Shown one piece after another: positions 921-28,494 of a stretch of DNA of 32,000 bases (the stretch's first letter is position 1; each line of letters opens with the position of its first letter). Made by a program: the position numbers and the translations under genes. Origin of the DNA: Candidatus Bandiella numerosa. GTDB lineage: Bacteria > Pseudomonadota > Alphaproteobacteria > Rickettsiales > Midichloriaceae. The stretch is taken from the NCBI RefSeq assembly GCF_029981845.1, contig NZ_CP104164.1:1023583-1055582 (forward strand), written 5' to 3'. The notes beneath the pieces were generated by a model. That model saw only the letters and a list, made by a program, of their open reading frames with translations. It was not told the DNA's origin and made no database searches.

Positions 921-948
921 GAGTCTATATGGCGAATATCATATTGAA

Positions 949-981: not shown

Positions 982-1008
982 TGTAGGGGGAGTTATAACA
1001 CAAACTCT

Positions 1009-1680
1009 AAATTTCAAAATAATTTTAATGAGGAGTATAATGTTATGACTTCTACCAGACAAACAATATTCTTAGATCCAATTGATGATAATAAAAAAAC
1101 AGTATTGCTACAAATCAGAAACACAAGTGATAAATCAGGATTAGAAATTGAATCTAAAATTAGGTCGGCGATAGAAAGTAAAGGTTATAGAATAGTAAAT
1201 AGTACCCAAAGTGCCAATATAATGATTCAAGCCAATGTATTGCAAGTAGGAAAAAACACATTAGAAAATCCATTCCAAGCGTTAACTGGAGGCTATGGTA
1301 GTGGACTGGAAGGTTTCGCAACAGGAGCTGCAATAGCAGGAGCCACAGGAGGAAGTGGGAGAAGTATGCTTGGTATAGGATTGATTACAGGAATAGGTAA
1401 TACAGTGTTAGATGCAGCAGTGGAAGTAGTGAACTTTACAATGATAACAGATTTACAAATAAGTGAGAAAGCAGATGGAGAATATGTCAGTGAGAGTAGT
1501 GATGCCAATTTAAAGCAAGGAACAAGTGGGTATAAAAAATCCAGATGGGAGAAGAAGACAAATTGGAAGAAGTATCAAACGAGAATAATGAGTGTAGCAA
1601 AGAAAACCAATTTGAAATTTGAGGAGGCAGAGCCAAAGTTAACAGAAGGGCTAGTGAAATCAATATCAGGGTTATTATAA
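1009..1680 (+). CDS. traT: TraT surface-exclusion / complement-resistance lipoprotein, 3' exon only (signal peptide and lipobox not in window)
   Basis: Colinear with F TraT from about residue 25: QTIFLDP, TVLLQIRNTSDK, KGYRIV, IQANVLQVGK, VEVVNFTMITDLQISEK, LKQGTSG, KYQTRIMSVAKKTNLKFEEAEPKL. The listed ORF 907-1680 reads in frame out of intron domains V/VI, so its first ~34 codons are not traT. An internal ATG at 1045 is preceded by GAGGAG. Confidence 0.8.
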   Translation, partial: KFQNNFNEEYNVMTSTRQTIFLDPIDDNKKTVLLQIRNTSDKSGLEIESKIRSAIESKGYRIVNSTQSANIMIQANVLQVGKNTLENPFQALTGGYGSGLEGFATGAAIAGATGGSGRSMLGIGLITGIGNTVLDAAVEVVNFTMITDLQISEKADGEYVSESSDANLKQGTSGYKKSRWEKKTNWKKYQTRIMSVAKKTNLKFEEAEPKLTEGLVKSISGLL

Positions 1681-6165: not shown

Positions 6166-9100
6166 TTATGCAGCTTTGTTGTATAATAAAATCTCCTTTG
6201 CATCATCTAATGTAATATCTGCTTTTTTTAGATTATTAAAATCATATATACCTAGTAAATTAATATGTCTCCAAGTAATGATAGAACCGTGCTTTATAAT
6301 ATCTATTATCTCCTTTCTTTTTTCTGGGTCACAGCGCATAATTAGTTTTGTAAGCATCAAATAATTCCATAAGATAATTAAATTTTGTATTATCATTTTA
6401 CATTGCACTACTATTTCTTGATCCTCTGTTATACTCTGTGTAAATTCTTGGTTATTAGCAAAAAATATTATTGAAGAAAACCTATTAGATAACTCTCCTT
6501 TATTTAATTGTTTCTCTATTTGCTGCCTTAACTCTACATTATCAATGTACTTTAAGATAAATATGGATTTTATTATTCTACCAAATTCTTTAAGTGCTTC
6601 ATGTAATTGATGTTGTTTTGCATAAGAACTTAACCTACGTAAAATCCTAGAAGCTTGTGTGTTTCTGAGTTTAATTGTTACTATTAATCTTAAAATGCTA
6701 TCCCAGTTTTCTTCTATTACTGAGGTTTTGATATATCTTGCTGGTAAAACAGGAGTTTTGTGTTGCGCCTTGAGTATTTGCTTAGTACTTTTATTAAAAG
6801 CAAATATACTTTGTGCGGCAATATTTTTGATACGTGGAGCAAAATCTACTCCTATTAAATAGCATATAGCAAAGATTATTTCTGTATATCCATGTGTATC
6901 GGTAGAATGGGTATCTATATTCATGTCCGCATTACATAATAATCCATCTATTACATATCCTGCATCACGTTCTGAACTGCTAAAGATAGTTGTATAAAAC
7001 AACATCTGCCTTTCATCTAAAAAAGTATAAACGCTACTACCATGATTTTGGCCAAAATACTTAAATGAAAAATTTGCATTTAAGGATTCAGCCGATACCA
7101 CAAATTTTTTAGCATCCCCAGAACTATGAAGTAACTCTTTATCCTTTAAAAAAAGTGTTGGTAACCATAACTTACTCATAAATTGTATAAAACTTTTATT
7201 TATTGTACTTAAATTTTCTACTGTAAAATACCAATTTACTGTATTATACAATGTATTATAATTGATTCCTTTCGATGTATTTGATAATCTATGTAGTCCC
7301 ATATTAGTTCCTAATCCGAAAATTCCACCATAAAATATTTCTTTAGCAGGTTTTTTGCTTATGTTCTTGACCTTATAATGCTTAAAGCACTCAGTAAAAC
7401 TCAATATCTTATCTATTTCTGAAAAAATTTCCAAAACAGATTTATATTCATTTTTACTCAATAATGAAGAAATTTTATCATGCTCTCCTCTTTCTACTTT
7501 TGGTGTATGTAGTATGAATCTTCCGTTCTTATGAAATCTTATAAATTTGTTTGTTTTATCGGTTATATTACAATTTGTAATATAATATTGTTTTTCTAAT
7601 ATATCTTTTAATTTTAATAACAAATCTTTAATCTTTTTAAAAATTTTCCAACACCAGCTCTTTCTATAAGTGTCTCCTTCTCTTTTTCCCATACGTCATC
7701 TGATATTAAATAGGCTTCTATTGGGAGAAATTTATAAGAATTAAGTAAATTAACTTCTCCACTTTTTATAGCGTCAGATATTTTTGTCAATAGTACTGCT
7801 TTATATAGCGAAACATTGAATTGATCGTTAGTTTTTCCAAAAATAAGTTTCTGTTCTATGTTAGATAAAAATTTTCTAGGGGAAGTACTATTAATATCTC
7901 CTTTCTTCTTTTGATAATCTACAATAGCTTCCATTAGGTTACTAGATTTAGTTTCTGGATTAAATTCTACATAACGTACTATATCAGCAACTCTATTTTG
8001 GATTGTTCTAGAAAAACTTTCTAATACTTTGTAATATTCTGAGTTACTTAGTTCATGTAGTATTTCTTTTTCTAATTCTTGATATTTTTTTAACTCCTCT
8101 GTAGTTATTTGCTCACCTAATATACTTTGAAGTATAGTGATTTTTTCAGCATCCGTTAACTCTTTTAAAAATACTATTTTTCTAATTTTTTCTATACTTT
8201 CTTCTGATCTTTTAAAACCTTCTATTATAGATTGAGTTTTTTTATTCTTTTCCTCATTTTTATCTATTATTTTTTCTTCAATAGCTTTTTCAACTTTGTT
8301 TAATCTCTCTTGAGTGGAACGCAATAGTATATTTACCAGTGTATCTTGCCATGTGCAATATTGATAATTTATAAACGCAGCAAGATAAAGATAAATCTTA
8401 TTAGGATTATTAAGTGTACTAAGTTGTTCTATTCGTGCTTTTATAACCCATATAGCATAATACTTTGTTGCTTCAGGGGATAAATCTAATGATTTTATTA
8501 AAGGCTCTAATTCCTTAAATAAATTTTTTACAATTAAAAACCCTCTGATACTTTGTTTTATATTTTTTGGTCTTAAAGACTGATTTATGTTTTTGAGCCT
8601 TGCAACTAAATTTCTCGCATAAACTCCCTTACTATCATTTTTATCTAACAACGCATCTAATACTTCCTTATGTTCTTCTGTAATATTTATTTCTATTTTC
8701 TTGAGTGATTGAAACTCAAAAAGATTAAATGATTCTGTTATCATTTTAGCAAATACCCTGTAATTAGGCAGTTCTATTTTTTTTGATGTTAAGAAATCTA
8801 TAGCTGCAAAAAATATATTACGAGGGTGCATTTGTTGTGATGCCATATGATTTAACTCTACTTTTAACAAATCTTCATTGCTACTAAAAGAAGTAAAGCC
8901 ACTTATAGATAATATTAATCTTTTATGTTCTCTATATGTACGCTCCTTATAATCACTTATAGCTACCTCTCTATATCCTAATAATTTACTTATAAATATA
9001 ATATCTTTTTTCTTATAATCCTCTTTTTGAAAAAATCTTTTTGTTGCTTTAAAATAACCATATTGTAATAATAAACCTGCTTTTGCTTCTGGCTTTCTAA

Positions 9101-9227
9101 TTTGATATAGTAATTCCTGAAGTATAGGTTCTTGTTTAAAATACTTTTGTTGCTCATTAATGTTAAATATAGGAGGTTTGTCAAAGCTCATAGCTTGCTT
9201 AGGTGGGATTATCTCTATTATTTGCAT
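6166..9227 (-). pseudogene. tnpA: Tn3-family transposase of element A, split by a frameshift (ORFs 7614-9227 and 6166-7692)
   Basis: The two overlapping ORFs (537 + 508 aa) together have the length and layout of a Tn3-type TnpA. The C-terminal DDE region carries SGDAKKF, THSTDTHGYTEI and FAPRIKN-type motifs. The frames switch within 7614-7692, which contains A4T5A5 runs. Confidence 0.85.
6686..7577 (-). repeat. Segment of element A tnpA duplicated in inverted orientation at 13082-13972
   Basis: The translations are identical over about 297 codons in the ORF track. The only difference I found is an A7 run (7148-7154) versus a T6 run (13505-13510) in the other copy. Confidence 0.9.
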
Positions 9228-10247: not shown

Positions 10248-10424
10248 AATATTATAAATATCCAATAATAACATAACTTTATATTCGCCTATTATCCTTT
10301 TATTGAAGAAATATAAAAATATAGGTCATTATAGGTAATATCATAAAAATAATTAATTCCACTATAAATAGAGGTGTTACCTTTAAAAAATTTCTTCCTG
10401 TAACTCACTTTAAATGCAGTATAC

Positions 10425-10467
10425 AGAATTCCTAATACTAGATTTGTCTATATTTGTAATTATACCC
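10425..10467 (-). repeat. Element A terminal inverted repeat, right core
   Basis: The reverse complement reads GGGTATAATTACAAATATAGACAAATCTAGTATTAGGAATTCT, the partner of 5908-5950. It lies inside the first codons of the listed ORF 10414-12894. Confidence 0.8.
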
Positions 10468-12894
10468 AGCATTGTAAAATCAGATCAGAAAGAGTTCGCA
10501 ATAAATGAGATTAGAAGAACTGTGGAGAAAAATCAGTTATTACGGGAGCTTTATCATAAAAGCGTTGAGGTGATTGAAAAACTTGGGATTTCTCAACAGA
10601 ATGTCGAATATTATAATCTATTAGTAAATCAATACAGCGTTCATAAATTGAAAAATCTGAGTGATGTAAATCTAAAAAGACTGTATTTGCTATGCTACGT
10701 AAACAATAGATTTTTAAAAATTAATGATCATCTTATTGCTAGCTTCATTTACAAGGTAAATAAATTTGTGAAAGATGCTGATGAATATCAGAAAGAGGAA
10801 ATATATAAAGAGAAGTTAATTGATAAAGAGAATCGCAAATTAGCAGTCAAAGCCTTATTATTGTACATAGATAAAAAAGTGCAGGATAGTGAACTAAGAA
10901 CAAACGCTTTTAAAGTTGTTGAAGAAAAGAAATTCAAGAAATTTGTGAATGAAATTGCAAATCCTCACTTAACGCCAGATTTTTATAAATGGAAATATTA
11001 CAGCAAGCAATCTTCTGCTATAAAGTTGAATATAAGGTTGATTTTTAAGGTAATAGAGTTTGATAGTGCATCAACAGATATGAATGATGCTATAAAGTTT
11101 TTTAAAAAATATATCACGAGTAATAAATCATTTAGTGATTATAAATTTGAAGAAATTCCAGTAACTTTCATTCCTGCAGCACTAAAAAAATACATCCTTC
11201 TCAAAACAAAATCTGGTAAAAAGAGAATATTATCAGTTGATGCTGATAATTATGAATTTGTACTATATTTAGAGATTGAAAAAGGATTGGACAAGGGAGC
11301 TGTCACAGTTAAAGATAGCTTTAATTACAAATCATTGGATGATGAACTTATAGAACTTAATCTATGGAATAAAGAAAAAGATAATTTTATAACGGGTGTG
11401 TCAGAGCAGTTATTGACCACAGATTTTGATAAATTGATGTTAGTATCTGAGGATTTACTAGATGGTCGCTATAAAGAGGTTAATAAAAGAATAAGTGAAG
11501 GAGTTAATGACAAGATAAAAATCAGATATAATAAAAAAGGAGAAGTTTTGAGTTGGAGGCTGCCGTATAAAAAGGCGGATGATTCAAGCAATAATCCTTT
11601 TTATGACAAGATGAGCTTGCTTGAGTTAGAAGAAGTGATGAGATACACAAATCACCATACCAACTTCATGAAGCATTTTACACATGTACTCCCAAGTTAT
11701 ATCAAAACTACAGCGAAATATTCAGCTATATCAGCATGTTTAGTGGCAAAGGGAACTGGAAGTGATATCCACATAATGAAAGATATTAGCGATATAGATG
11801 AACAAGAGCTTATTTCAACATATAATAATTATATAAGATATGAAACTCTAACCAAAGCTAGTGATGAAATAATCAATGAGGTAGCTAAATTACCGATATT
11901 CATAAAATACAATCTATCAGATTATGGGATTCATGCTTCAGTTGATGGTCAGAAATTAGAAACAAAATACAATACAATCAAAGCTAGACACTCGAAGAAA
12001 TATTATGGATTAGGCAAGGGAATATCAGCTTATACCTTATTCGCTAATTGTTTGCCACTATGTACCAAAATAATCGGAGCTAATGAACATGAAAGCCACT
12101 ATCTTTTAGATGCGTTAAAAAGCAACACAAGTGATATTGAAATTTCTTCAGTATCAGGTGATATGCATAGCATAAACCGAGTTAATTTTGCTCTATTACA
12201 TATTTTTGGCTACAGATTTATGCCTAGATTTAAACAACTTGATCAAAAAGCTCAAAGAAATTTAGTAAGTTTTAAAGACCCAAAAGTATATCAGAAATAC
12301 CTAATCAAGCCTAATAAAAGAGTTAATAAAGAATTAATTAAAAAGGAGTGGGATAATATATTGCGTATTTTTGTAACACTTGCGACAAAGAAAAATACCC
12401 AAAGCAGGATTGTTAGAAAGTTGTCATCATTTAAATCAAATGACACATTAAAAGCATTGATAGAATTAGATAAAATAATAATGAGTCTTTATATTTTGGA
12501 TTATATAGATGACGAACAAATGCGTAAATCTGTGTATCGCTCGTTAAATAGAGGCGAATCTTATCATCAATTAAGAGCTGCAATAGCAAAAATCAGTGGT
12601 AGAAAATTAGCAGGGAAAAATGAAATAGAACTTGTGATTAACAATGAATCTGCTAGATTTATTGCGTTATGTATTATTTTTTATAATGCGTCTCTATTGT
12701 CGAATTTATATGAGTTTTGCCTAGAGAATAATATGACAGAGGAGTGTAGGAAAATTATTAAACTTTCACCCGTTGCTTGGCAGCATATTAGTCTTGTGGG
12801 TAAATACGAATTTAATAGAGATGGTTATGATATCATAAACTTAACTGAAATTGTAAGAAATTTTACGAAAAACTTAAAAGAATATTTGGAATAA
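10468..12894 (+). pseudogene. tnpA: Tn3-family transposase of element B, lacking about the first 200-230 codons
   Basis: Aligns by eye with element A TnpA from its residue ~230 onward (KRLYLLCYVNNRF vs KIYLYLAAFINYQ). The C-terminal DDE region carries HASVDGQK, SGDMHSINRVNF and FMPRFKQL. The apparent start at 10414 is inside the element A IR, so the ORF is chimeric. Confidence 0.85.
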
Positions 12895-20349: not shown

Positions 20350-21789
20350 TTATAACCCTCCATGATCCCTATTTTTATACTCTTCCTTATTGTATAAAGT
20401 CTCCTCATCTTTTGTATCTTTGCTCTTATCTCTCCCATCTGGCTTCTTCTGCCTACTTTCATTTAAATCTTCTGCTTCAGCAAACTTCTTCTCATATAAC
20501 TTCTGATCATCTATCTGCTCATTTATATCTTCTGTGTCATTTTTAGCTGCACCTACACCACCCTCTGCCATCACATCGTTTTTAATTGTATTAATCTCTC
20601 CTTCCATTAATCTTTGCGTATGCTCAAGCGCCTTCTTCATATCTCCCATCCTGCTCCATATATTCTTTTTCTTAATATCTTCAGACAAAAACTCAAAATC
20701 TATCTTCTCAAAATCTATCCCCTGCAATTCCTCTATGCTAAACCCAGTGCAATTAGGTGACTCTACATCTCCCCATCCCTTATTTATTAATCCTTTCTCC
20801 CTAGATTGCTTATTTATCTCCCTCGCTATTTTCGAATCATAACAACAATATGTTGTTCTTTTTATTATGCACGCTCCCAATACTCTACTACTACAAAATG
20901 TCCCAATTTCTACACACCTTTCTTCCTGCTTCATCTTCGCCAGATTCTTATCTCTTGCGCTACATTTTGCTCCTAACATCTTTCCCCATCCTCCTAACTT
21001 CGTACAACAATTTGTATATCCTCCTATTTTCTTATCACATTTTTCATTATTACCCTTAAACACCGAACCATTAGCTTTCCACTCACCCTGCATCTCCTTA
21101 AGTGTAGCCAACATCCCTGCAGCGTTCCCCATCTCATCATTTGCCTTGTAACTCATATCAAAGCATTTTCCATCTATGCACTTTATTTCCTCCCCACACA
21201 CAACTCTTTTTCTCTCCTCTATGTTATCCCTTTTAAATGATGGAGGCCTATACCTCTTCTCCTTTCTTATATATTTCTCACTTTCTTCACAATTATATAC
21301 TCTATTCTGCGCTACACACCAATCTCCCACCTTCTTTTTGCATTCTGTACTCTTTAGCTGGCAATATGATGCATCATCATATTGCGTGCAGTTATTCCTT
21401 GCATATCTCTTACATCTATATGCATCCTTATATCTCCAACAGTCCCTGTAAACAGTTTTTCCATTTATTACCCTACTTGCTCCTGGCTCTATACAATCTC
21501 TTCCAACTCTCTCACACTTCCCATTTAACTCTACTTCTTTTTCTTCTCGCTCTTTCCTTGCTTTTTCTATCACCTCATCCATATCTTCACTTACTTTATA
21601 ACCCTCTCCTGATACTCCAACACTTTTTTCTTTTGCATTAACTTCAATTATTAAAATAATTATTAATGCTATTATTAGCGCAATTCCAAGTAGCGGAATT
21701 TTAAAATATGTGCGTCCTAAAGATCCCGTACTTTCCATTTTTACCAATTTATCATCTTTTATTATCATAGCGGACAATCTCCATCCCAT
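20350..21789 (-). CDS. traN: TraN, C-terminal Cys-rich half with its own N-terminal hydrophobic segment
   Basis: CWRYKDAYRC, VVCGEEIKCIDGKCFD, GGYTNCCTKLGGWG, TFCSSRVLGACIIKRTTYCCYDSKIAREI and PNCTGFSIEELQGIDFEKIDF parallel F TraN (SCWAYRDTY, MVCGGDVFCLDGECD, YSNCCKDSGWG, EFCSKKVLGVCLEKKRSYCQFDSKLAQIV, PDCRGITVDELQKIQFSRLDF). TM/signal segment: YFKIPLLGIALIIALIIILIIEVNA. The start may be 21768. Confidence 0.85.
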   Translation of the reverse strand: MGWRLSAMIIKDDKLVKMESTGSLGRTYFKIPLLGIALIIALIIILIIEVNAKEKSVGVSGEGYKVSEDMDEVIEKARKEREEKEVELNGKCERVGRDCIEPGASRVINGKTVYRDCWRYKDAYRCKRYARNNCTQYDDASYCQLKSTECKKKVGDWCVAQNRVYNCEESEKYIRKEKRYRPPSFKRDNIEERKRVVCGEEIKCIDGKCFDMSYKANDEMGNAAGMLATLKEMQGEWKANGSVFKGNNEKCDKKIGGYTNCCTKLGGWGKMLGAKCSARDKNLAKMKQEERCVEIGTFCSSRVLGACIIKRTTYCCYDSKIAREINKQSREKGLINKGWGDVESPNCTGFSIEELQGIDFEKIDFEFLSEDIKKKNIWSRMGDMKKALEHTQRLMEGEINTIKNDVMAEGGVGAAKNDTEDINEQIDDQKLYEKKFAEAEDLNESRQKKPDGRDKSKDTKDEETLYNKEEYKNRDHGGL

Positions 21790-22946
21790 TCATCACTACC
21801 CCACCTTGTGCAACAATATTGAGTTGCTCTTAACTCAACATATAATCTTCCACTATTCCCAAATGCCAATTCTATTCTAATAGTATTATTTCCATCCCTT
21901 AAATACGGCACTAAATCCACGTTTGGGCTCGTGTTATAGAATCTTTTTGTATTGCACGTTCTTACTACACTTCCTGAATGTAAATTTGTGAATTCACCAT
22001 ATCCTCCATGCCAACTTCTTTCTCTCCAATATGGTCCATCCCCACCCATACTATTATATGCCTGCACCCCATTTACTGATATTCTGATCCAATCACTGTA
22101 TTGTATGTTAGTTACTCTGAATTCCTTTATAATATCTTTATTCTTTACTATAAAATTTATGTTTTTATCAATTATATGACATCTTCCACTATCTCGCACT
22201 TTATCTATTGTCCCTAAATACAAATTCGGGTAATTTGCTCTCCAAAATATATTCCCATCTATACTTCCTTGCACCATTCCTCCTGCATCATATCCACAAT
22301 CCATTTTTTCTATGCATTCCCCCATATTTTTTATACTTCGCTCGCAATAAAATAACTTATCCTCATCTTCTTCACATTTCTTATTCTCTCTTATCAACCT
22401 ACTATCTTCCACATCTACATAATATTCCTCAAACTCTACATTCTCACCTCCCACATTCTTATCCGCTATTTTACACTCTGTTTTTCCTTCTACATTCAAT
22501 CCTGATATCGGATTAGAAGTTACCGCATCACTCTTTTTTATAAATTCTTTATGCTGTAATTTCCCTGCTGTGTAATTTGACCTATGCGGATTCTCTGCAT
22601 ACGAACTCTTTGCAGCTCCTATCGCTTCCCTCACTCCTTCGTTTTCATCCTTCTCTTGTCCCTTTACCCTAGCGTCTCCCTTTGACCTTAATTCATACTC
22701 ACTGTATCCTGATTCCTTTGGCTTCTCTGTATATCCGTCTAATTCCTTTACTTGATTACTAAGCTCTCCCTTACCAGTCTCCCCCACATACTCTTTTGCT
22801 TCTTTTTTATAATCATCTATGTAATTAAAATTATATTCTTCTCCCTTAACTTGCTTCACTTCCATTAATATCACTACGTTCAATATTAATAAAATTGCAA
22901 TTTTACTTTTGCTTCTTTCAACGCTAACTGGCTTTTTTAACCACAT
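21765..22946 (-). CDS. TraN N-terminal-half-like secreted protein
   Basis: Signal-like N-terminus (KIAILLILNVVILMEV). The region KLFYCERSIKNMGECIEK resembles F TraN YTCERDLQVEQYCTR. A beta-rich region ends in CCTRWGSDEWDGDCPL (compare F TraN VVWSESCPFSK). Located exactly where the traN 5' half is expected, after trbC. Confidence 0.55.
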   Translation of the reverse strand: MWLKKPVSVERSKSKIAILLILNVVILMEVKQVKGEEYNFNYIDDYKKEAKEYVGETGKGELSNQVKELDGYTEKPKESGYSEYELRSKGDARVKGQEKDENEGVREAIGAAKSSYAENPHRSNYTAGKLQHKEFIKKSDAVTSNPISGLNVEGKTECKIADKNVGGENVEFEEYYVDVEDSRLIRENKKCEEDEDKLFYCERSIKNMGECIEKMDCGYDAGGMVQGSIDGNIFWRANYPNLYLGTIDKVRDSGRCHIIDKNINFIVKNKDIIKEFRVTNIQYSDWIRISVNGVQAYNSMGGDGPYWRERSWHGGYGEFTNLHSGSVVRTCNTKRFYNTSPNVDLVPYLRDGNNTIRIELAFGNSGRLYVELRATQYCCTRWGSDEWDGDCPL

Positions 22947-23806
22947 ACCATTTCACCAGATTTATTAAATACACCTTCCACATACTCAAAGCTTACATTC
23001 CCTGCTATCTTATTATACTTTGTGCCATTGCAACTTACCGTATCTGCACCTAAATTACCTTTTTCTTCATTCTTGCTACATCCACCCTCCTTAACTCCAG
23101 CAATAACAAATGTTGGCACCACCTTCACTTCAAATTCTTTAAAACTCTCAGGATCTATTACAACTCCATATCCAGTCTTCCTCATCATCTCACTCAAATA
23201 CTTTGCTGTTTTTTTATAACTTCCTTCCTTAAATCCTCTCATCACTGGTACCCACCCCCTTACCTTTGCTTCTCTCACTATATTTTCCAGGTTATTGTCA
23301 CTTAATGACAATGATACAAAAACTAATTTCCTACATTTATTACTAAACCCCAAAATTTCACTACTGCTATTTTTTCCATCTGTAGCATCTACAGCACCAG
23401 CACCTTCAAATAATTTCGTTTCTTTTATATATTCATCCACTCCTTTAAAACTCTTCCTTTTTAGCTCATATGATTCTTTGGCATATTCCTTTGCTTTTTC
23501 TGTTGCATCATTTACATATTTATTAACTTCCTTCTTATTTAATTCCAATACTTTAGGATTATCATATTTCCTAACCTCTCCCTCATATTGTATTGCTTTT
23601 TTTGCTCCTGCTTCCGTAATCTCTCCTAATCCCATCTCTCCTATTATTTCTCTACCCTCTACTTTATTTACCAATTGCAAACATCCTAAAAAACACAGTA
23701 ACAATACTGCCATTGCTTTCTTTATTGCTTTCTTTATTACCTTCTTGCTCACCACCAAATTTAAAGGCTCTTCAGCTAAAAACTCTTTTTTTAAATTTAT
23801 TTTCAT
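22937..23806 (-). CDS. trbC: TrbC, F-type T4SS periplasmic protein
   Basis: LVFVSLSLSDNNLENIVREAKVRGWVPVMRGF ... GVVIDPESFKEFEVKVVPTFVI parallels F TrbC (ALYFVSFSIPEEGLKRMLGETRHFGIPATLRGM ... GVQIDPTLFSQYGIRSVPALVV). Canonical position after traU. Confidence 0.8.
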   Translation of the reverse strand: MKINLKKEFLAEEPLNLVVSKKVIKKAIKKAMAVLLLCFLGCLQLVNKVEGREIIGEMGLGEITEAGAKKAIQYEGEVRKYDNPKVLELNKKEVNKYVNDATEKAKEYAKESYELKRKSFKGVDEYIKETKLFEGAGAVDATDGKNSSSEILGFSNKCRKLVFVSLSLSDNNLENIVREAKVRGWVPVMRGFKEGSYKKTAKYLSEMMRKTGYGVVIDPESFKEFEVKVVPTFVIAGVKEGGCSKNEEKGNLGADTVSCNGTKYNKIAGNVSFEYVEGVFNKSGEMVCG

Positions 23807-23823
23807 TTTCTAAATCACCATAT

Positions 23824-24840
23824 TTACATAATACAGCAATATTTCTTGCGCCATACCAAATACCCAAAATCTTCTCCATTCCCTGGTATTTCTCTCCCCG
23901 CTCCCCATATTGCACTCAGTCTCCCGAATGGATTGCAGCACATACCACCCGTACTATTTGGTATCGGGAATGTCATTTGTAATTTATACTGCGTTTTCTT
24001 AACCTTAACCGCCAACTGCTTCTTGCACACATTACTCACAGTATCCCATGCAAGCCCTACTCTATGTAACCTTGCAATCACCTTTTCCACTATTAAACTA
24101 CTCGCCTGCACTCCTCCTACATGATTCTCTATAAACCCTCCGAATGGATATAACCCTCCATCACATCCTGCGCACCAAAATAAATTATCTGATGAAAATC
24201 CACTCGTTGCCATCATACAATCTGCACTACATGCAAGTTGTGCTATCGGGTTCCCAAATAATATCGCCTCAGGATTTAATATTGCATTTAACTCATCATT
24301 ATTCCAAAGTGGATCAAACTCACTTAAATACGCAACATCTATAGATGTTTGCTCTAAACATACAAAATCCGTCAATAACTCTAACCAATAGATAAGTGGA
24401 TATATATACCAATGTACATGATAAAAACTATGCTTAAGTGCCTCATTATTACTCTTCCTTGCCACACTCCCATGCTTCTTAGCGCTCTTCATTAACTGGA
24501 GCCCTCCAAGACTCACCATACAATATGGTGTCCTCGTAACATCAGCAAGCCTCGCTGGCTCCCAAAAGCTTATTGGTATTCCAGGTACTGGTAATTTCAC
24601 TCCTCCAACATCCTTCATACATAAACATGGGATTGTGCTTGGATTGTTCGTATCTTCCCTCCCACCTGAATATAAAGGTATATTCCCTATTTTTATTGGA
24701 AATATACAACTCCAACATATATCTGTAATCGGATTTACAAATTTACCAACACATGGTTCACTTCTTGCTTTTTCTAAATTACTTGCTAAGGTTAGAATTA
24801 TCGTTATTACTTGTAATAATGGTTTTATATACTTTAATCG
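23824..24840 (-). CDS. traU: TraU, F-type T4SS periplasmic protein; true start unresolved (frame open up to 25353)
   Basis: CVGKFVNPITDICWSCIFPIKIG, ISFWEPARLADVTRTPYCMVSLGG and later blocks closely match F TraU (CEGRFVNPITDICWSCIFPLSLG, ISYWEPMALTDVTRSPGCMVNLGF). A signal-like KYIKPLLQVITIILTLASN precedes them. There is no in-frame ATG/GTG/TTG between 24840 and 25026. Confidence 0.85.
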   Translation of the reverse strand, partial: RLKYIKPLLQVITIILTLASNLEKARSEPCVGKFVNPITDICWSCIFPIKIGNIPLYSGGREDTNNPSTIPCLCMKDVGGVKLPVPGIPISFWEPARLADVTRTPYCMVSLGGLQLMKSAKKHGSVARKSNNEALKHSFYHVHWYIYPLIYWLELLTDFVCLEQTSIDVAYLSEFDPLWNNDELNAILNPEAILFGNPIAQLACSADCMMATSGFSSDNLFWCAGCDGGLYPFGGFIENHVGGVQASSLIVEKVIARLHRVGLAWDTVSNVCKKQLAVKVKKTQYKLQMTFPIPNSTGGMCCNPFGRLSAIWGAGREIPGNGEDFGYLVWRKKYCCIM

Positions 24841-25020
24841 GTCACATTGTTGCTTACAGGTGGGCCCACTATTTTTTCCAAACCTTATGACTTCATACCA
24901 CCTGTGAGCTTCTATATGGATGTTGCTTTCTTCTGGATTTATCTCTATCTCTATGCTATATTCATTACATGAATTACGAATTACACTACTTACTTTTTTA
25001 TGAAAGACGAAGAGGTTACT

Positions 25021-25347
25021 ATGCATTATAAAACTTTTGATACTCATAAATACATTAAAAGCCTCCAAGAAAGCGGCTTTAATGAAAAACAAGCTGAAAT
25101 GCTCGTTAAATCCCTTCTTGAGTCCAGAGACTTTGACCTCTCTATTCTTGCTACTCGTGAACAGGTTGCCAGACTTGACGGTAAAATTGATAAGGTTGAG
25201 TCTAATCTTGAGAAAAAGATTATTGAAGTTAAATCTGAACTCAAAGAAAGTATCTCTAGTATTAAACATGATATGCTTAAATGGATTGTCCCTATGATGC
25301 TTACTATCGTCGGTATTGCAGTTGGAATTGCGCTGAAACTTCTTTAA
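25021..25347 (+). CDS. DUF1640-like small coiled-coil protein with C-terminal TM helix (opposite strand to the tra operon)
   Basis: MHYKTFDTHKYIKSLQESGFNEKQAEMLVKSL, then a coiled-coil, then WIVPMMLTIVGIAVGIALKLL. This matches my recollection of the DUF1640 family layout. RBS GAAGAGG lies 6 nt before ATG 25021 (alternative ATG at 25000). Family assignment is from memory only. Confidence 0.6.
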   Translation: MHYKTFDTHKYIKSLQESGFNEKQAEMLVKSLLESRDFDLSILATREQVARLDGKIDKVESNLEKKIIEVKSELKESISSIKHDMLKWIVPMMLTIVGIAVGIALKLL

Positions 25348-25349
25348 TA

Positions 25350-26474
25350 TCATTCTTCCATACCTATACTTTTACCTTCTTTTTTGGTATTTTTAGCCAA
25401 AGGTTTAAGATTACCAAAATCACTCAATTTCTTTGTCCACTCGTCGCTACTAAAAAGTGATGCTGCTTTTTCCTCACTTTCATGACAAATATTACTTAAT
25501 GTTACTCCTGGATAATTACATAGCGCCAATAATGTTTCTTTTATTTTCTTATCATCTGGATAAAGCTTATGTAATCTATCTAACTCCTCTTTTGCTATTA
25601 AAAAATATTCTTTTGCTAAATCATATCTTGCCAATCCTGCAAGCGAATCCAAATCCAATTCCTCATCCCCGCTATAAGAACGCCCTCGTCCTGCAGCACC
25701 ATACTCATTGATTGCTGCATATAGTATCTCTATTTTTTCTGATCTAGGATTTTGATATATCTCACTCTTTTCTAACTGCTCTGCTTTTTTCGCTAATAGA
25801 TCTCCTTTTAATTTATGTAAAATCCTCTTTTTATCATAAGGTCGCGCTATTTTTAACCCTATGTCACATGCCTTTATACCCTCCTTGATCTTATCTATAT
25901 CCCAACCAACTATTTTTGCTTTTCCTATATACGCATTAACATTCTTTTTATTTAGTGCTATCGCCTTATTATATTCTGCACCTGCAGCTGTGAATTCGCA
26001 TTTCCCACATAATGCATCTCCTTTGTTCACATATGCACTGTCTAGTTTGCTATCCAGCTTTATCGCTTCATTACTAGACTGTATCGCTTTATCATACTGC
26101 TTTTGTAAATTATATAATTCTGCAAGTCTATTATGTATCTTCGCATTCTTTGGCTCATAATTTAAAGCACTTTTTAATTTAAAAATCCCCTCAATAAAAT
26201 CACCCTGCTTAATGTGACATACCGCATCTAACTGCCGTTTTCTTGAGCGCTCTTTATTCCCCCAGGACTCTACTTCAATTGCAATTGCATCACAATAATC
26301 ACCGTATTTATCCAGATTTTCCATATGCTCATCAAGTTTTTTGGCCTCTATCTTCCACTCTTCCTCTCTTTTATCACTTCCTTCTCCTTTATCATGAGCA
26401 AAAGTTTGCGCTATAGCTCCACTCATAATTAAAAAACTTACCAAAGTTATTGGCACTATTTGATTAATTCTCAT
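25350..26474 (-). CDS. Secreted tetratricopeptide-repeat (TPR) protein
   Basis: Signal peptide (VPITLVSFLIMSGAIAQTFA). At least three consecutive TPR units (GDFIEGIFKLKSALNYEPKNAKIHNRLAELYNLQKQYDKAIQSSNEAIKLDSKLDSAYVNKGDAL...AEYNKAIALNKKNVNAYIGKA). ATGA overlaps at both ends couple it to neighbouring ORFs. Confidence 0.8.
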   Translation of the reverse strand: MRINQIVPITLVSFLIMSGAIAQTFAHDKGEGSDKREEEWKIEAKKLDEHMENLDKYGDYCDAIAIEVESWGNKERSRKRQLDAVCHIKQGDFIEGIFKLKSALNYEPKNAKIHNRLAELYNLQKQYDKAIQSSNEAIKLDSKLDSAYVNKGDALCGKCEFTAAGAEYNKAIALNKKNVNAYIGKAKIVGWDIDKIKEGIKACDIGLKIARPYDKKRILHKLKGDLLAKKAEQLEKSEIYQNPRSEKIEILYAAINEYGAAGRGRSYSGDEELDLDSLAGLARYDLAKEYFLIAKEELDRLHKLYPDDKKIKETLLALCNYPGVTLSNICHESEEKAASLFSSDEWTKKLSDFGNLKPLAKNTKKEGKSIGMEE

Positions 26475-27778
26475 ACCCCTCCTTCTCTTTTAGCTAAAGA
26501 GCCTCTAAGCACACAGAAAGACGAGTCTTCTACTAAATACCCTGTTTTTTCATCTATATGCCGCTTGGTTACTCTTTCGGCCGTGATTAAATATTCAGGA
26601 TGTTTATCAATGCATTTATTTTCTTCTTTGACCCTACCCCACTTATACTTATTACCTTCTATAAGCCTCTTTATCGCTTTTTCATCATAGCCCATGCAGC
26701 ATACACTACTAATTTCCCCATTCAATAACCTTAATATCTCATCCTGTGGACTAATATTTGCTATCACCCCCTTCATATGTAACCTTAAAGTGCGCAAATA
26801 TCCTTCTATGAATATTTTCTCTGCTTCATTCTCGAAATCTCCTATCAGCCCCCTCAGTATTATACCTTTGTAAGTTTTCAATCCGCATTGCTTGTCTTTC
26901 ACATCAATGTACGTAAGCACCCCTGCAACTAGTACTTTTTTCACTTCTTCTACTTCATCAAAACTTATTGCACTAAAATCACTCTCTAAATCCAAGTCAG
27001 CCTTTCCATTAAAATATCTGCCATACTTTCCAGTCTCTCCGTATCTGGATAACATGCGTGCAATATATTCAGCATTCTCCTTAGGGTTACTTTCAGTTTG
27101 CAACATCCATTTGATTAAATCACTTATTCCTGCTTTTTCTTTTTTTTCCTTCCATACTCCTTTCACCCCTTCCTCTATTAGATACATATTTACGTAATTG
27201 TCCTTCTGCTCTCCTGCTTTTCCATCTGATACCATTATCTTAATTAAGGCAGATATCAGCCATAAACCATCTTCTTCAAAATATTCTTGCTCTTTATTCA
27301 GCACACTAAATGGGTTGATGCATACATATTTATCATTAGCTATACTTATATACTCTTTGCCAAATTTTTGAGCTTCATTCTCAAAATCTCTTCCTGCATC
27401 CAATATGCATACCTTATCCTTCTGCTCTATAATACTATTTGACAGCTCTTGCATGAATCTTAATCCATCATTACTTGCTCTCTGATCACCCTCTACTACT
27501 GCAACATTATTATTAATCACTATTTCTCTATCAAATGGATACCAATAAAACTTACCTTTCTTTCTACCCCATAACTCCACACCTGAGGTTATGTTTGTCT
27601 CCTCAATTATATATTTGTCAGCCTCATCTTGATGGGTTTGATTATATTCTTCTGCGGTTTTTAACATACCAGCTATCCTATTTTTGTACTTTGTATATCC
27701 CCGCACTAAAGATATAAGAACTCCTGTACATCCCCCTATTGTTATTGACGCAATAATCATTTCAGAATTTATATACAT
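26471..27778 (-). CDS. Membrane-anchored TraC (VirB4)-like C-terminal-domain paralogue with degenerate Walker A and B motifs
   Basis: Alignable with TraC residues ~450-800: FYWYPFD/YYWYPFD, RFMQEL/VFMQEL, CINPFS/CLNPFS, KAGISDLIKWM/KAGIGDLAEWF, GKYGRYFNGKADLDLES/GAYGKYFNGKANIDFSA. GRSGAGKS is replaced by EGDQRASNDG, and IIFDEAWDL by IILRGLIGDF. N-terminal helix: IIASITIGGCTGVLISLV. Confidence 0.75.
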   Translation of the reverse strand: MYINSEMIIASITIGGCTGVLISLVRGYTKYKNRIAGMLKTAEEYNQTHQDEADKYIIEETNITSGVELWGRKKGKFYWYPFDREIVINNNVAVVEGDQRASNDGLRFMQELSNSIIEQKDKVCILDAGRDFENEAQKFGKEYISIANDKYVCINPFSVLNKEQEYFEEDGLWLISALIKIMVSDGKAGEQKDNYVNMYLIEEGVKGVWKEKKEKAGISDLIKWMLQTESNPKENAEYIARMLSRYGETGKYGRYFNGKADLDLESDFSAISFDEVEEVKKVLVAGVLTYIDVKDKQCGLKTYKGIILRGLIGDFENEAEKIFIEGYLRTLRLHMKGVIANISPQDEILRLLNGEISSVCCMGYDEKAIKRLIEGNKYKWGRVKEENKCIDKHPEYLITAERVTKRHIDEKTGYLVEDSSFCVLRGSLAKREGGV

Positions 27779-28494
27779 TATCCTACTTCCACCTCCTTTA
27801 TCTTAAGCACTTTTCCTTCTTGCCTCACTACCGCAGGAACTGCTTTTATCCCAAGCTGCTTTATCAGCACTCCTCTTTGATCAAAGTAAAAATCTAATTT
27901 ATACTCCTCTTCTAATTTAACAGGAGATCCTCCTGTTAATATTAACTTTGGCTTTATTTCTGATTCTTCGTATTTTTTAATTACATACTTTAATTGATCC
28001 TCGTCTTCCCCATCAAAAAATATTAACTCATATGGCATACTAACCACATCCAGTGGGTTTACCTTTGTTCCCTTCCTATGGAACACTATACCCCTTGCGT
28101 CTCTTAAATCTTCCTTTACCTCTATACTCGGATCGTATTCATATTCTCTTACTTCACTAACCCTTCCTAAATTTAAAGATTTGGGACTCTTAATTCTACC
28201 ACTTACCTCTTTCTTCATTCTTTCGTTATGCTCATCCAACTCTCCTCTTGCTTCCATATCACTTAACTTGCCCTTTATCTCCTCTATCGCATCTACTTCC
28301 TTAATTTCACTCGTCCTTCCAACCACTCCAAAATCTTTTGCCTTTGCATTAATTGAAAGTAATAAAAAACATATTACTATTAACATCGCTACCCCTACTA
28401 TAGCGATACCAGTTGTTGTTATAACTCTAACCCACCAATAAACCTTATCTTCTATTTTCTGGTTTTTACTATAATTCTTCCTAACCATCTCCAT
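27778..28494 (-). CDS. traW: TraW, F-type T4SS periplasmic protein
   Basis: DLRDARGIVFHRKGTKVNPLD, LIFFDGEDEDQLKYV, KLILTGGS and FYFDQRGVLIKQLGIKAVPAVV parallel F TraW (DIRDNEGRVFARQGEVMNPL, LYFINGDDPAQVAWM, KIILVQGS, VYFDQNGVLCQRLGIDQVPARV). Confidence 0.85.
   Translation of the reverse strand: MEMVRKNYSKNQKIEDKVYWWVRVITTTGIAIVGVAMLIVICFLLLSINAKAKDFGVVGRTSEIKEVDAIEEIKGKLSDMEARGELDEHNERMKKEVSGRIKSPKSLNLGRVSEVREYEYDPSIEVKEDLRDARGIVFHRKGTKVNPLDVVSMPYELIFFDGEDEDQLKYVIKKYEESEIKPKLILTGGSPVKLEEEYKLDFYFDQRGVLIKQLGIKAVPAVVRQEGKVLKIKEVEVG

What the first reader, a model, noticed from the sequence alone, without database searches (positions are those of the whole stretch)
24838..25353. traU has no start codon of its own: its frame runs antisense through a complete DUF1640-like gene to an ATGA-coupled ATG
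**traU start.** The TraU-homologous part begins near 24840 (signal-like KYIKPLLQVITIILTLASN, then CVGKFVNPITDICWSCIFP). Walking upstream in that frame, I find no ATG, GTG or TTG until 25026.

**Open frame.** The frame stays open to ATG 25353. That ATG overlaps the TGA of the upstream TPR gene as ATGA. The same coupling style is seen at traW/TraC-like (TAATG) and at TraC-like/TPR (ATGA).

**Antisense gene.** Positions 25021-25347 of this frame are codon-for-codon antisense to a well-formed plus-strand gene (RBS GAAGAGG, DUF1640-like N-terminus, coiled coil, C-terminal TM helix). That gene has 14 Leu codons, all CTY or CTG, and 10 Ser codons, none TCA. It therefore contains none of the three codons (TTA, CTA, TCA) that would create stops in the exact antisense frame, although neighbouring genes use TTA freely.

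**Shared palindrome.** The plus-strand ATG (25021) and the nearest minus-strand ATG (25026) share one palindromic ATGCAT.

**Possible readings.**
- A cassette insertion removed the traU start, so traU is silent or uses a non-canonical start.
- TraU is made with a 110- to 170-residue N-terminal extension encoded antisense to another gene, giving a genuine overlapping gene pair.
- Convergent transcription of the small gene gates expression of traU through traG.
Basis: partly seen in the sequence, partly recalled or inferred. Interest (0 to 1): 0.7.

Follow-up and report, generated by a model that had tools for sequence, protein, structure and literature searches.

The report
traU read antisense through another gene
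In this conjugation gene cluster from a Rickettsiales-type bacterium, traU has no start codon of its own and is read from a start about 500 bases upstream, straight through the opposite strand of a small, conserved membrane-protein gene; about 35 related sequences keep both reading frames open against the local codon habit, making this one of the clearest comparative cases of a selection-maintained antisense gene overlap in bacteria.

Summary
The minus-strand ORF 23824-25353 (509 aa) is TraU. It has no ATG, GTG or TTG between 25026 and its signal peptide. It stays open to an ATG that forms ATGA with the TPR gene's stop, and it runs codon-for-codon antisense to a DUF1640/CCDC90-like gene (25021-25347, +).

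Comparative data show this is selected, not chance. Of 40 related DUF1640 loci, 35 have no TTA, CTA or TCA codon, and all 35 lie next to traU or, in another lineage, traH. Pooled counts are 0 of 429 Leu and 0 of 356 Ser codons. Paralogues outside tra clusters, one from the same MAG, carry 5-17 antisense stops. The genes are as AT-rich as their hosts.

The long ORF's first ATG overlaps the upstream gene's stop (traW, TPR or traF) wherever enough upstream sequence is available.

The DUF1640 frame is strongly constrained (pN/pS 0.07). The leader frame is not (1.6), and neither is the spacer (0.70). Only ORF continuity is selected.

Best reading: a translated, sequence-free leader bridges an antisense-inserted gene, keeps traU coupled to the operon, and is removed with the signal peptide. 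Expression itself is untested.

The parts
23824..25353 (-). Long traU ORF (509 aa): leader, signal peptide and mature TraU
   Evidence: ORF list. Pfam TraU E 6e-113 at aa 203-508. The closest homologues P0001-P0004, P0012 and P0021 have the same long form.
25350..25353 (-). ATGA junction: the first ATG of the long ORF overlaps the TGA of the upstream TPR gene
   Evidence: An equivalent ATGA with traW, TPR or traF is seen in the 23 related loci where an upstream ORF of at least 60 codons could be seen, preceded by SD-like GGTGA/GAGGT.
25021..25349 (-). Leader segment overprinted codon-for-codon on the antisense strand of the DUF1640 gene
   Evidence: Same register, no stops. On this DNA the leader frame has pN/pS 1.6 and the DUF frame 0.07.
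24835..25020 (-). Non-overlapping spacer of the leader: open, but its sequence is unconstrained
   Evidence: No stops in the tra frame against 15 and 13 in the other two frames over the 89-codon linker (spacer plus signal peptide). pN/pS 0.70 with no codon periodicity. Independent spacers of 76-96 codons in L003 and L004 are also open.
24760..24834 (-). TraU signal peptide (KYIK / PLLQVITIILTLA / SNLEKARS), internal to the long ORF
   Evidence: hydropathy peak at aa 172-194. pN/pS 0.31 with coding periodicity. It aligns with the cleavable signal peptides of short TraU homologues (...VNA|EPC...VQA|EPC). Cleavage itself is inferred.
23824..24759 (-). Mature TraU (EPCVGKFVNP...) and stop codon
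   Evidence: Pfam profile positions 1-305 of 306. pN/pS about 0.05 against close relatives.
25021..25347 (+). DUF1640/CCDC90-like gene (108 aa; alternative ATG at 25000 gives 115 aa): conserved N-domain, coiled coil, C-terminal TM helix
   Evidence: PF07798 E 4.4e-12. pN/pS 0.07 over 27 unique sequences. No TTA, CTA or TCA.
25009..25015 (+). GAAGAGG, candidate ribosome-binding site of the DUF1640 gene, 5 nt before ATG 25021
   Evidence: Read from the sequence. It lies in a block that is 100% identical in 9 loci.
25021..25026 (.). ATGCAT palindrome: DUF1640 ATG on the plus strand, in-frame tra ATG on the minus strand
   Evidence: The minus-strand ATG is not universal: it is ATA-CAT in L015, L107, L109 and L111, and GCT-CAT in L004.
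24960..25160 (.). Ultra-conserved core (95-100% identity in 9 loci): DUF1640 N-domain plus about 60 nt upstream of its start
   Evidence: Column identity profile. The flanking traU coding sequence is 87-96%.
25350..26474 (-). TPR-repeat gene, immediately upstream and coupled to the long ORF
   Evidence: Pfam TPR families. It is absent in L001 and L002, where traW itself is coupled to the long ORF.
26471..27778 (-). TraC-like 435-aa paralogue (ATPase-domain region) between traW and the TPR gene
   Evidence: TIGR02746 TraC-F-type E 1.4e-30, partial. P-loop_TraG is weak.
27778..28494 (-). traW
   Evidence: About 90% identical to the traW of L001 and L002, which directly precedes the long traU ORF there. 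TraW_N is weak.

Best explanation
In this lineage of F-type conjugation clusters, a small DUF1640-family gene sits on the opposite strand between traW and traU. The lineage is Rickettsiales, close to Midichloriaceae such as Ca. Bandiella. In a sister lineage the same kind of gene sits between traF and traH.

traU has not kept a start of its own. Its translation begins at an ATG that overlaps the stop codon of the upstream gene (ATGA). It runs through about 110 codons that are the exact antisense of the DUF1640 gene, then through a free spacer, and then into the TraU signal peptide.

Selection keeps this leader free of stop codons. It does so by forcing the DUF1640 gene to avoid TTA, CTA and TCA. 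It does not constrain the leader's amino-acid sequence.

The leader therefore acts as a translated bridge. It carries ribosomes from the upstream gene across the inserted antisense gene. That preserves translational coupling and, by inference, avoids polarity. Signal peptidase would then remove the leader together with the signal peptide, leaving normal periplasmic TraU.

**Shown:** both ORFs and their register; the conserved stop avoidance; the conserved coupled ATG; strong purifying selection on DUF1640 and on mature TraU; no sequence constraint on the leader.

**Inferred:** that the leader is actually translated from the coupled ATG; that the internal signal peptide is recognised and cleaved; that the benefit is coupling or anti-polarity; that DUF1640 is expressed from its own promoter.
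For: - **Closest homologues share the long form.** The closest TraU homologues (87-51% identity) all have it.
- **Direct coupling to traW.** In L001-L006 the long ORF starts in ATGA with the traW stop, and a DUF1640 ORF lies antisense in the same register.
- **Stop avoidance across loci.** 35 of 40 Rickettsiales-type DUF1640 loci have no antisense stop, with partner traU or traH. The per-locus chance is 1e-3 to 6e-9 for the 28 loci where it could be computed, except short L115 at 0.07.
- **Pooled counts.** 0 of 429 Leu and 0 of 356 Ser codons are stop-generating. The figures are 30 of 50 and 7 of 39 in non-tra paralogues, and 239 of 490 and 85 of 386 in the traU genes.
- **Turnover without stops.** Synonymous turnover among permitted codons occurs at the same Leu and Ser columns, with pS up to 0.5-0.7 between lineages.
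- **Host-like composition.** The genes are host-like in GC, 0.29-0.36.
- **Coupled ATG.** ATGA with an SD-like motif is conserved whether the upstream gene is traW, TPR or traF.
- **Open spacers.** Spacers of 76-96 codons are open, while each other frame has 4-16 stops.
- **No other start in three lineages.** The window type, the L015 type (ATA-CAT) and L004 have no canonical start between the DUF start and the signal peptide's hydrophobic core.
- **One-sided decay.** In L111 DUF1640 has two in-frame stops but the tra frame is intact.
- **Selection pattern.** DUF frame pN/pS 0.07, leader frame 1.6, spacer 0.70, signal peptide 0.31.
- **Wider trait.** A wider TraU clade without DUF1640 also has ATGA-coupled in-frame leaders and no Met at the signal peptide.
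Against: - There are no expression data of any kind.
- In several lineages (the traH type, L005, L016) an in-frame ATG, the ATGCAT palindrome, sits just before the signal peptide and could serve as an ordinary start. ATG 25047 or 25026 could do the same in the window.
- A signal peptide placed about 175 residues into a protein is unusual for a bacterial periplasmic protein.
- The SD-like sequence before ATG 25353 is weaker in the window than in L001.
- Reduced synonymous divergence of the DUF core among close relatives could reflect recombination rather than dual constraint.
- Many loci are related, so the counts overstate the number of independent events. About 10 lineages are distinguishable.
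Confidence: 0.65

Rival explanations
1. Productive TraU is initiated at an internal in-frame ATG: 25026 in the ATGCAT palindrome, or 25047. The upstream open frame is kept only so that ribosomes coming from the upstream gene keep covering the mRNA, giving anti-polarity and protection from pairing with the antisense transcript. The long fusion would then be a minor by-product.
For: - The ATG of the palindrome lies directly before a normal-looking signal peptide in the traH type (MHKCTHYRECFIKYAIILGLIVSF...), in L005 and in L016.
- In the window a GGAGG lies 15 nt before ATG 25047. An out-of-frame mini-ORF (ATG 25055, MYL*) ends in an ATGA on that ATG.
- The leader sequence is unconstrained.
Against: - The palindromic ATG is absent in the L015, L107, L109 and L111 lineage (ATA) and in L004 (GCT). 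These still lack any other proximal start.
- In the window type it would still leave a 65-aa presequence.
- The GGAGG depends on a CTC Leu codon found in only 8 of 27 unique sequences.
- Ribosomes entering at the coupled ATG cannot avoid making the fusion, because there is no stop.
Confidence: 0.2
2. traU uses a non-canonical start codon next to its signal peptide (for example ATA 24828), and the long open frame is irrelevant.
For: - ATA and ATT codons exist near the signal peptide.
- A wider TraU clade has a conserved ATA-CAT ('IH') at the start of the signal peptide.
Against: - The ATA at 24828 is not conserved. L002 and L012 read NTK where the window reads YIK.
- No SD precedes it.
- This reading gives no reason for about 200 stop-free codons upstream in about 35 loci, or for the codon distortion of DUF1640.
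Confidence: 0.04
3. The small-gene insertion destroyed the traU start, and traU is now silent or decaying.
For: - There is no proximal start.
- The cluster carries other insertions: TraC-like, TPR and Tn3 transposases.
Against: - Mature TraU is intact across the full Pfam profile. Its pN/pS is about 0.05 against close relatives and 0.2-0.5 at saturation.
- The same arrangement persists in about 10 diverged lineages and with two different tra genes.
Confidence: 0.02
4. The stop-free antisense frame is a by-product of composition or family-specific codon bias (foreign, GC-rich origin), not of selection for the tra frame.
For: In GC-rich distant DUF1640 homologues (median GC 0.62), 40 of 72 have no antisense stop by composition alone.
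Against: - The tra-linked genes have GC 0.29-0.36 and GC3 0.17-0.35, like their hosts.
- Non-tra paralogues in the same kind of genome, one in the same MAG, use TTA for 12 of 18 and 12 of 15 Leu codons and have 15-17 antisense stops.
- Synonymous sites have turned over without ever producing a stop.
Confidence: 0.01
5. The DUF1640 ORF is only a relic that is no longer expressed. The region is simply the 5' coding part of traU.
For: - Gene callers usually drop one of the two ORFs.
- In L111 the DUF frame carries two stops.
- No convincing sigma-70 promoter was found upstream.
Against: - DUF frame pN/pS is 0.07, with differences concentrated at its third codon positions (0.04, 0.019, 0.256).
- The leader frame on the same DNA gives 1.6.
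- The ORF, its RBS-like GAAGAGG and its C-terminal TM helix are kept in nearly all loci.
Confidence: 0.06

Closest known systems
Long antisense overlapping genes in bacteria (olg1/olg2 in Pseudomonas aeruginosa, PMC8850804; antisense OLGs of E. coli O157:H7, PMC9927249)
   Same: - A long ORF lies on the strand opposite an established gene.
- The case for function rests on conservation or purifying selection and on coding features.
   Different: - Per the abstract of PMC8850804, the P. aeruginosa embedded ORFs are evolutionarily novel. From my own knowledge, that genome is GC-rich and long antisense ORFs are compositionally easy there.
- Here the genomes are AT-rich, so stops should be frequent.
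- The embedded gene belongs to an old, widespread family.
- The overprinted partner is the leader of a conserved secretion-system gene.
- The overlap recurs with two different partners (traU and traH).
- The only detectable constraint on the overprinted frame is the absence of stops. The published cases have ribosome profiling; this one has none.
Canonical F-type traW-traU junction (F plasmid; here L010 = P0007, 80% identical TraU)
   Same: - Same gene order.
- traU is translationally coupled to the upstream gene by an ATGA overlap.
- TraU is a periplasmic protein with a cleavable signal peptide.
   Different: - In L010 the ATGA-coupled ATG is the first codon of an 18-residue signal peptide (MKAIFLILIFSSAALA|EPC).
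- In the window the coupled ATG and the signal peptide are separated by 173 codons, about 110 of them antisense to another gene.
Precursor proteins with an internal, cleaved signal peptide (Bradyrhizobium japonicum FbcH cytochrome b-c1 polyprotein; recalled from my own knowledge, not checked here)
   Same: A hydrophobic signal-like segment with an A-x-A/S site lies far from the N-terminus. Signal peptidase would cut there and release a periplasmic domain.
   Different: - In FbcH the upstream part is a functional membrane protein. Here the upstream part shows no sequence constraint and is probably discarded.
- Cleavage is not demonstrated here.
Long stop-free antisense frames explained by codon bias (classical caution about antisense ORFs; from my own knowledge)
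   Same: The codon-for-codon antisense frame is open because the sense gene lacks TTA, CTA and TCA.
   Different: Here the bias runs against the host's own usage and is absent from non-overlapped paralogues. Codon bias is therefore the consequence, not the cause.

Membership tests
TraU (PF06834), F-type T4SS | Full-length match to the TraU profile above the curated cut-off | tested here: met
   E 6.4e-113, 377.6 bits (cut-off 26.5), profile positions 1-305 of 306 at aa 203-508.
TraU (PF06834), F-type T4SS | N-terminal cleavable signal peptide directly after the start codon | tested here: not met
   The signal-peptide-like segment is at aa 174-198 of the only ORF with a canonical start. Cleavage is not testable.
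F-type conjugative T4SS cluster | Syntenic traV-traC-traW-traU-trbC-traN-traF-traH-traG | tested here: met
   Pfam hits for TraV, TraU, TrbC_Ftype, TraN, TraF, TraH and TraG_N in that order on the minus strand. traC was assigned by homology to the TraC genes of L001 and L002.
DUF1640 / CCDC90-like (PF07798) | Whole-protein score above the gathering cut-off | tested here: met
   46.6 bits against 33.5, E 4.4e-12. The best stretch covers only profile positions 1-27 of 175. tblastn relatives at 30-39% identity occur in many unrelated MAGs.
DUF1640 / CCDC90-like (PF07798) | N-domain, coiled coil and C-terminal transmembrane helix architecture | tested here: met
   Alignment A1 shows the conserved N-domain, a variable heptad-like repeat region and a hydrophobic C-terminus. 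Architecture was read by inspection only.
Antisense overlapping gene pair (dual coding) | Two long ORFs on opposite strands sharing the same DNA | tested here: met
   327 nt are shared, codon for codon.
Antisense overlapping gene pair (dual coding) | Evolutionary maintenance of both frames beyond compositional expectation | tested here: met
   DUF frame pN/pS 0.07. The tra frame has no stops in 35 loci against an expectation of 1e-3 to 6e-9 per locus, with paralogue controls.
Antisense overlapping gene pair (dual coding) | Amino-acid-level purifying selection on the overprinted frame | tested here: not met
   Leader frame pN/pS 1.6 in the overlap and 0.70 in the spacer. There is a compositional hint only: A-ending codons are depleted in Thr, Ala, Val, Ile and Gly.
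Antisense overlapping gene pair (dual coding) | Transcription and translation of both frames | not testable with these tools
   No RNA-seq, ribosome profiling or proteomics is available.
Translational coupling | Start codon overlapping the upstream stop (ATGA/TAATG) with an SD inside the upstream gene | tested here: met
   ATGA at 25350-25353. The same is seen in 23 related loci, with GGTGA/GAGGT upstream. Functional coupling is not testable.

The most novel reading that the evidence does not exclude
The traU and traH leaders and the DUF1640 genes form a dedicated, selection-maintained antisense module. Late tra genes can be translated only by ribosomes crossing about 330 nt that are perfectly complementary to the DUF1640 mRNA. 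Transcription of the small gene would therefore gate conjugation, through RNA duplex formation, RNase III cleavage or head-on transcription. The two products would both be tail-anchored membrane proteins encoded by exactly complementary codons: the DUF1640 protein, and the leader plus signal-peptide fragment. They might even interact.
Probability: 0.12. Interest if true: 0.9.

Novelty: new variant of a known kind. Interest (0 to 1): 0.78.

Why it matters
Long antisense overlapping genes in bacteria remain contested, because open antisense frames can arise from composition alone. Here the signal runs against composition.

- In AT-rich genomes a whole gene family has purged three otherwise favoured codons, but only in copies that lie under a tra gene's reading frame.
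- It has done so repeatedly, across about ten lineages and with two different partner genes.
- This gives a clean natural experiment, with internal paralogue controls, for how one strand's translation constrains the other strand's codon choice.
- It shows a mode of overlap in which only "no stop" is selected: a translated bridge rather than a second protein.
- For conjugation biology, it predicts that TraU and TraH in these elements are made as precursors with 130-260-residue disposable leaders.
- It also predicts that a small tail-anchored protein gene, or its mRNA, sits at a control point inside the transfer operon.
- For annotation, gene callers systematically drop one of the two genes or truncate the signal peptide.

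Tried and rejected
- **AlphaFold2.** Prediction of the 509-aa precursor with a 30-sequence alignment gave mean pLDDT 42.5. Even the TraU part was poor, so it is uninformative about the leader. No fold search was run.
- **Leader-only protein search.** The 173-aa leader returned only 4 proteins, fragments of the same arrangement. The word-index search handles this low-complexity sequence poorly.
- **Promoter and terminator scan.** No convincing plus-strand promoter lies upstream of DUF1640. There is a weak terminator-like hairpin at 25442-25462 (+). By eye, TGGATT-17-TATATT at 24934-24962 is only a weak candidate.
- **Rfam.** An E-value search of 23500-26000 found nothing.
- **PLSDB plasmids.** A tblastn search with the DUF1640 protein found no match.
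- **NCBIfam.** No family matched DUF1640 or the second small ORF.
- **Literature.** Full-text searches for DUF1640 with conjugative, Rickettsiales, Midichloria or Rickettsia terms, and for the RAGE tra clusters, found no description of this arrangement. The Orientia RAGE paper does not mention an antisense gene.
- **Frameshift origin.** I considered the out-of-frame ATG at 24848 (ATG TGA). It stops immediately, so I rejected it.
- **Alternative genetic code.** I rejected this because TGA clearly acts as a stop in all the ATGA junctions.
- **Dual constraint versus recombination.** Synonymous divergence of the DUF core is lower than that of traU in several pairs (0.15-0.26 against 0.66). I did not count this as proof of dual constraint, because recombination could also produce it and other pairs show no reduction.


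Full report
**1. The observation**

The minus-strand ORF 23824..25353 encodes 509 aa. Pfam TraU matches residues 203-508 over the full profile, E 6e-113.

A codon-by-codon walk finds in-frame canonical starts only at 25353, 25269, 25092, 25068, 25047 and 25026. There is none between 25026 and the signal-peptide-like segment at residues 174-198 (KYIK-PLLQVITIILTLA-SNLEKARS, then EPCVGKF).

ATG 25353 overlaps the TGA of the upstream TPR gene as ATGA. The two preceding junctions are TAATG and ATGA, both with strong GGAGG motifs.

The plus-strand ORF 25021..25347 (alternative ATG at 25000) scores above the Pfam cut-off for CCDC90-like/DUF1640, E 4.4e-12. It is in the same codon register as the minus ORF.

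- Its 14 Leu codons are CTT, CTC or CTG, and none of its 10 Ser codons is TCA.
- In traU, 63% of Leu codons are TTA or CTA and 14% of Ser codons are TCA.
- The chance of an open antisense frame is therefore about 2e-7.

**2. The arrangement is conserved**

The closest TraU homologues in a 5.8-billion-protein collection cover the whole 509-aa query, leader included. They are P0001 to P0004 at 87, 79, 72 and 64% identity.

Their contigs show the long ORF starting in a 4-nt overlap with the stop of traW, with no TraC-like or TPR gene in between. A DUF1640 ORF lies antisense in the same register.

L004 has a TraU only 51% identical and a DUF1640 protein only 23% identical. Its architecture is the same.

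L005 and L006 were annotated as a short GTG-started TraU plus a DUF1640 gene. That short TraU has a truncated signal peptide. Yet the frame is open to an ATG on the traW stop there as well.

A scan of one genome per species and a scan of JGI metagenomes with a DUF1640 alignment added 33 Rickettsiales-type loci. These include Ca. Bandiella numerosa and Midichloriaceae MAGs.

Of 40 such loci, 35 have no TTA, CTA or TCA codon in the DUF1640 gene.

**3. Two partner genes**

In one group the long ORF continues into TraU. In another group (L014, L101-L106, L108, L110) it continues into TraH, and the upstream coupled gene is TraF. In L101 the contig ends before the partner gene, so its assignment rests on its upstream gene end and leader, which match the TraH loci.

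In both groups the first ATG of the long ORF forms ATGA with the upstream stop. It lies 6-12 nt from the antisense of the DUF1640 stop, and an SD-like GGTGA or GAGGT precedes it.

The window and L092 differ only in having the TPR gene as the upstream partner.

**4. Controls against chance and codon bias**

- **Non-tra paralogues.** DUF1640 paralogues outside tra clusters have 17, 15, 5 and 1 antisense stops. They are L017, from the same MAG as L011 and L012, and L114, L112 and L113. L017 and L114 use TTA for 12 of 18 and 12 of 15 Leu codons.
- **Pooled counts.** Stop-generating codons are 0 of 429 Leu and 0 of 356 Ser in the 33 stop-free loci pooled (short or atypical L111 and near-duplicate L006 left out). 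They are 30 of 50 and 7 of 39 in the paralogues, and 239 of 490 and 85 of 386 in the partner traU genes.
- **Composition.** The overlapped genes are not GC-rich: GC 0.29-0.36 and GC3 0.17-0.35. Foreign composition therefore does not explain the pattern. It would in GC-rich distant homologues, where 40 of 72 are stop-free by composition.
- **Time.** Synonymous sites have had time to change, with pS 0.4-0.7 between lineages. The same Leu and Ser columns switch among CTT, CTC, CTG and TTG, or between TCT and TCC, without ever using a forbidden codon.
- **L055.** In the Peranema endosymbiont, traU has its own ATG and a good signal peptide. The antisense frame there carries a stop and no coupled ATG.
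- **L010.** This TraU is 80% identical to the window's, and the locus lacks the small gene. traW is coupled directly to an ATG-initiated signal peptide.
- **L111.** DUF1640 has two in-frame stops, but the tra frame is intact.

**5. What is and is not selected**

- **DUF1640 N-domain.** Over 27 unique sequences the DUF frame gives pS 0.41 and pN 0.027, a ratio of 0.07. Differences per site are 0.04, 0.019 and 0.256 at codon positions 1 to 3. The leader frame on the same DNA gives a ratio of 1.6. DUF1640 is therefore a strongly constrained protein, and the leader's sequence is a passenger.
- **Spacer.** In the window-type non-overlapping linker (the spacer plus the signal-peptide codons), the tra frame has no stops, while the other two frames have 13-16 each. 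pN/pS over the spacer is 0.70 with no codon periodicity. The adjacent signal peptide gives 0.31 with normal periodicity.
- **Frame preservation.** Linker lengths differ among lineages (32, 33, 34, 36, 41, 76, 89, 90 and 96 codons), yet the frame is always preserved.
- **Conclusion.** The only detectable constraint on the leader is continuity of the ORF.
- **Secondary signal.** A-ending codons are also depleted in Thr, Ala, Val, Ile and Gly (0.08-0.17 against 0.29-0.59 in the paralogues), but not in Lys, Glu or Gln. In the leader this removes Cys, Tyr and Trp codons. I record it as a hint of composition-level selection, not as proof.
- **Conserved core.** A 200-nt core at 24960-25160 is 95-100% identical in nine loci whose traU flanks are 87-96% identical. 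It covers the DUF N-domain and about 60 nt upstream.

**6. Mechanism**

The simplest account is that traU, and in the sister lineage traH, has no functional start of its own. It depends on the ATG coupled to the upstream gene, so any stop in the leader is lethal to the gene and is purged.

This fits several facts:
- The coupled ATG is conserved whichever gene lies upstream.
- Three lineages have no canonical start anywhere between the DUF start and the signal-peptide core (window type; the L015 type, with ATA-CAT; L004).
- The tra frame is kept where DUF1640 decays (L111).

The leader would stay cytoplasmic. The signal peptide would act as an internal signal-anchor, and signal peptidase would cut after A-R-S, giving a normal mature TraU. 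This step is inferred. Hydropathy shows only one borderline hydrophobic stretch in the leader besides the signal peptide.

The benefit is probably continuity of translational coupling, and avoidance of an untranslated gap of 400-500 nt, across a gene inserted on the other strand. That is also inference.

The main rival is that an internal ATG is the productive start while the upstream ORF only carries ribosome traffic. The candidates are the ATGCAT palindrome, or 25047, which has a GGAGG and a coupled mini-ORF in the window. This cannot be excluded for lineages that have that ATG, and both routes may operate.

Whether DUF1640 transcription gates traU and the downstream genes is open.

**7. A wider pattern**

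Of 108 TraU homologues fetched, 61 are called with at least 60 residues before the conserved Cys. About 38 of these, from another alphaproteobacterial clade, have a conserved Ile-His at the start of the signal peptide and no Met.

In the two loci examined (L116 and L117):
- The codons are ATA-CAT.
- The leader, of 114 or 148 codons, is open.
- It starts in ATGA with the upstream gene.
- No DUF1640 gene lies on the other strand.

The coupled, in-frame leader thus looks like a general solution in this TraU clade. The window represents the sub-case in which the leader is overprinted on a real gene.

**8. Comparison and novelty**

The closest known kind is the long antisense overlapping gene. Examples are P. 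aeruginosa olg1 and olg2 (PMC8850804) and the E. coli O157:H7 antisense OLGs (PMC9927249).

This case differs in four ways:
- The genomes are AT-rich, so selection acts against the mutational bias.
- The embedded gene belongs to an old family, and the overprinted part is a leader of a conserved secretion gene.
- The overlap recurs with two partner genes.
- The selected property is only "no stop".

Full-text searches found no description of it. I rate it a new variant of a known kind.

**9. Limits**

- There are no expression data.
- Many loci are related, and about ten lineages are distinguishable.
- The signal-peptide call rests on inspection and alignment.
- The structure prediction was uninformative.
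- The window's organism is inferred only from its nearest relatives: Ca. Bandiella numerosa, at TraU pS 0.17, and the MAG E14_bin-0687.

Noticed in passing
L116:3001-3400, L117:3001-3450; proteins P0032-P0109: A different alphaproteobacterial TraU clade also lacks a Met at the signal peptide. It has a conserved 'IH', encoded ATA-CAT, and is read from an ATGA-coupled ATG through a 70-190-aa in-frame leader. In the two loci checked, no DUF1640 gene lies on the other strand. Leaders are conserved within sub-groups (for example SFFQxLQxFWGxQYVYK).
   Followed up: partly
L014, L101-L106, L108, L110 (e.g. L103:1546-3468, minus strand): The same antisense overlap exists with traH instead of traU. The order is traF, then ATGA, then a leader antisense to a DUF1640 paralogue, then the TraH signal peptide. 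Here the palindromic ATG sits directly before the signal peptide (MHKCTHYRECFIKYAIILGLIVSF...).
   Followed up: partly
L097:3382-3570 (+), and the equivalents in L105 and L106: A second small ORF follows DUF1640 on the same strand and in the same frame. It is about 59-63 aa, with a coiled-coil-like N-terminus and a C-terminal TM helix. It too has no antisense stops, so the tra leader there crosses two embedded genes. It has no Pfam or NCBIfam match.
   Followed up: partly
L111:3001-3330: The DUF1640 gene carries two in-frame stop codons (ATR*QV and VK*LV), while the 455-aa tra-frame ORF across it is intact. This is a one-sided decay of the pair, or possibly sequencing errors.
   Followed up: no
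window 24960-25160: A 200-nt block is 95-100% identical in nine loci whose flanking traU sequence is 87-96% identical. It covers the DUF1640 N-domain, its start, the GAAGAGG motif and about 60 nt upstream. This could reflect dual constraint, a regulatory element or recombinational homogenisation.
   Followed up: partly
window 25045-25067 (minus strand): A GGAGG lies 7 nt before an out-of-frame ATG (25055). That mini-ORF, ATG TAT TTA TGA, ends in an ATGA on the in-frame ATG 25047. This is a possible internal re-initiation site. The GGAGG depends on a CTC codon present in only 8 of 27 unique sequences.
   Followed up: partly
window 25350-27778 (minus strand): A truncated TraC-like ATPase paralogue (435 aa) and a TPR-repeat gene (374 aa) are inserted between traW and the long traU ORF, relative to L001 and L002. 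All three junctions keep stop/start overlaps.
   Followed up: partly
tra-linked DUF1640 genes of 33 loci (pooled): A-ending codons are depleted beyond the three stop-generating ones: Thr 0.08, Ala 0.10, Val 0.15, Ile 0.13, Gly 0.17, against 0.29-0.59 in non-tra paralogues. Lys, Glu and Gln stay A-rich. The effect is to remove Cys, Tyr and Trp codons from the leader.
   Followed up: partly
window 60-1680, 6166-9227, 10414-12894: The window also holds a reverse-transcriptase fragment and a TraT homologue. It has two Tn3-family transposase copies: one split into two overlapping ORFs on the minus strand, one 826 aa on the plus strand. This suggests a mobile, rearranged element.
   Followed up: no
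window 21765-22946 (minus strand): A 393-aa Cys-rich ORF lies between trbC and traN. It has no Pfam hit and only a faint TraN-like NCBIfam match (E 5e-5). A gene in the same position is conserved in related clusters (371-430 aa in L002, L005, L007, L009 and L010).
   Followed up: no
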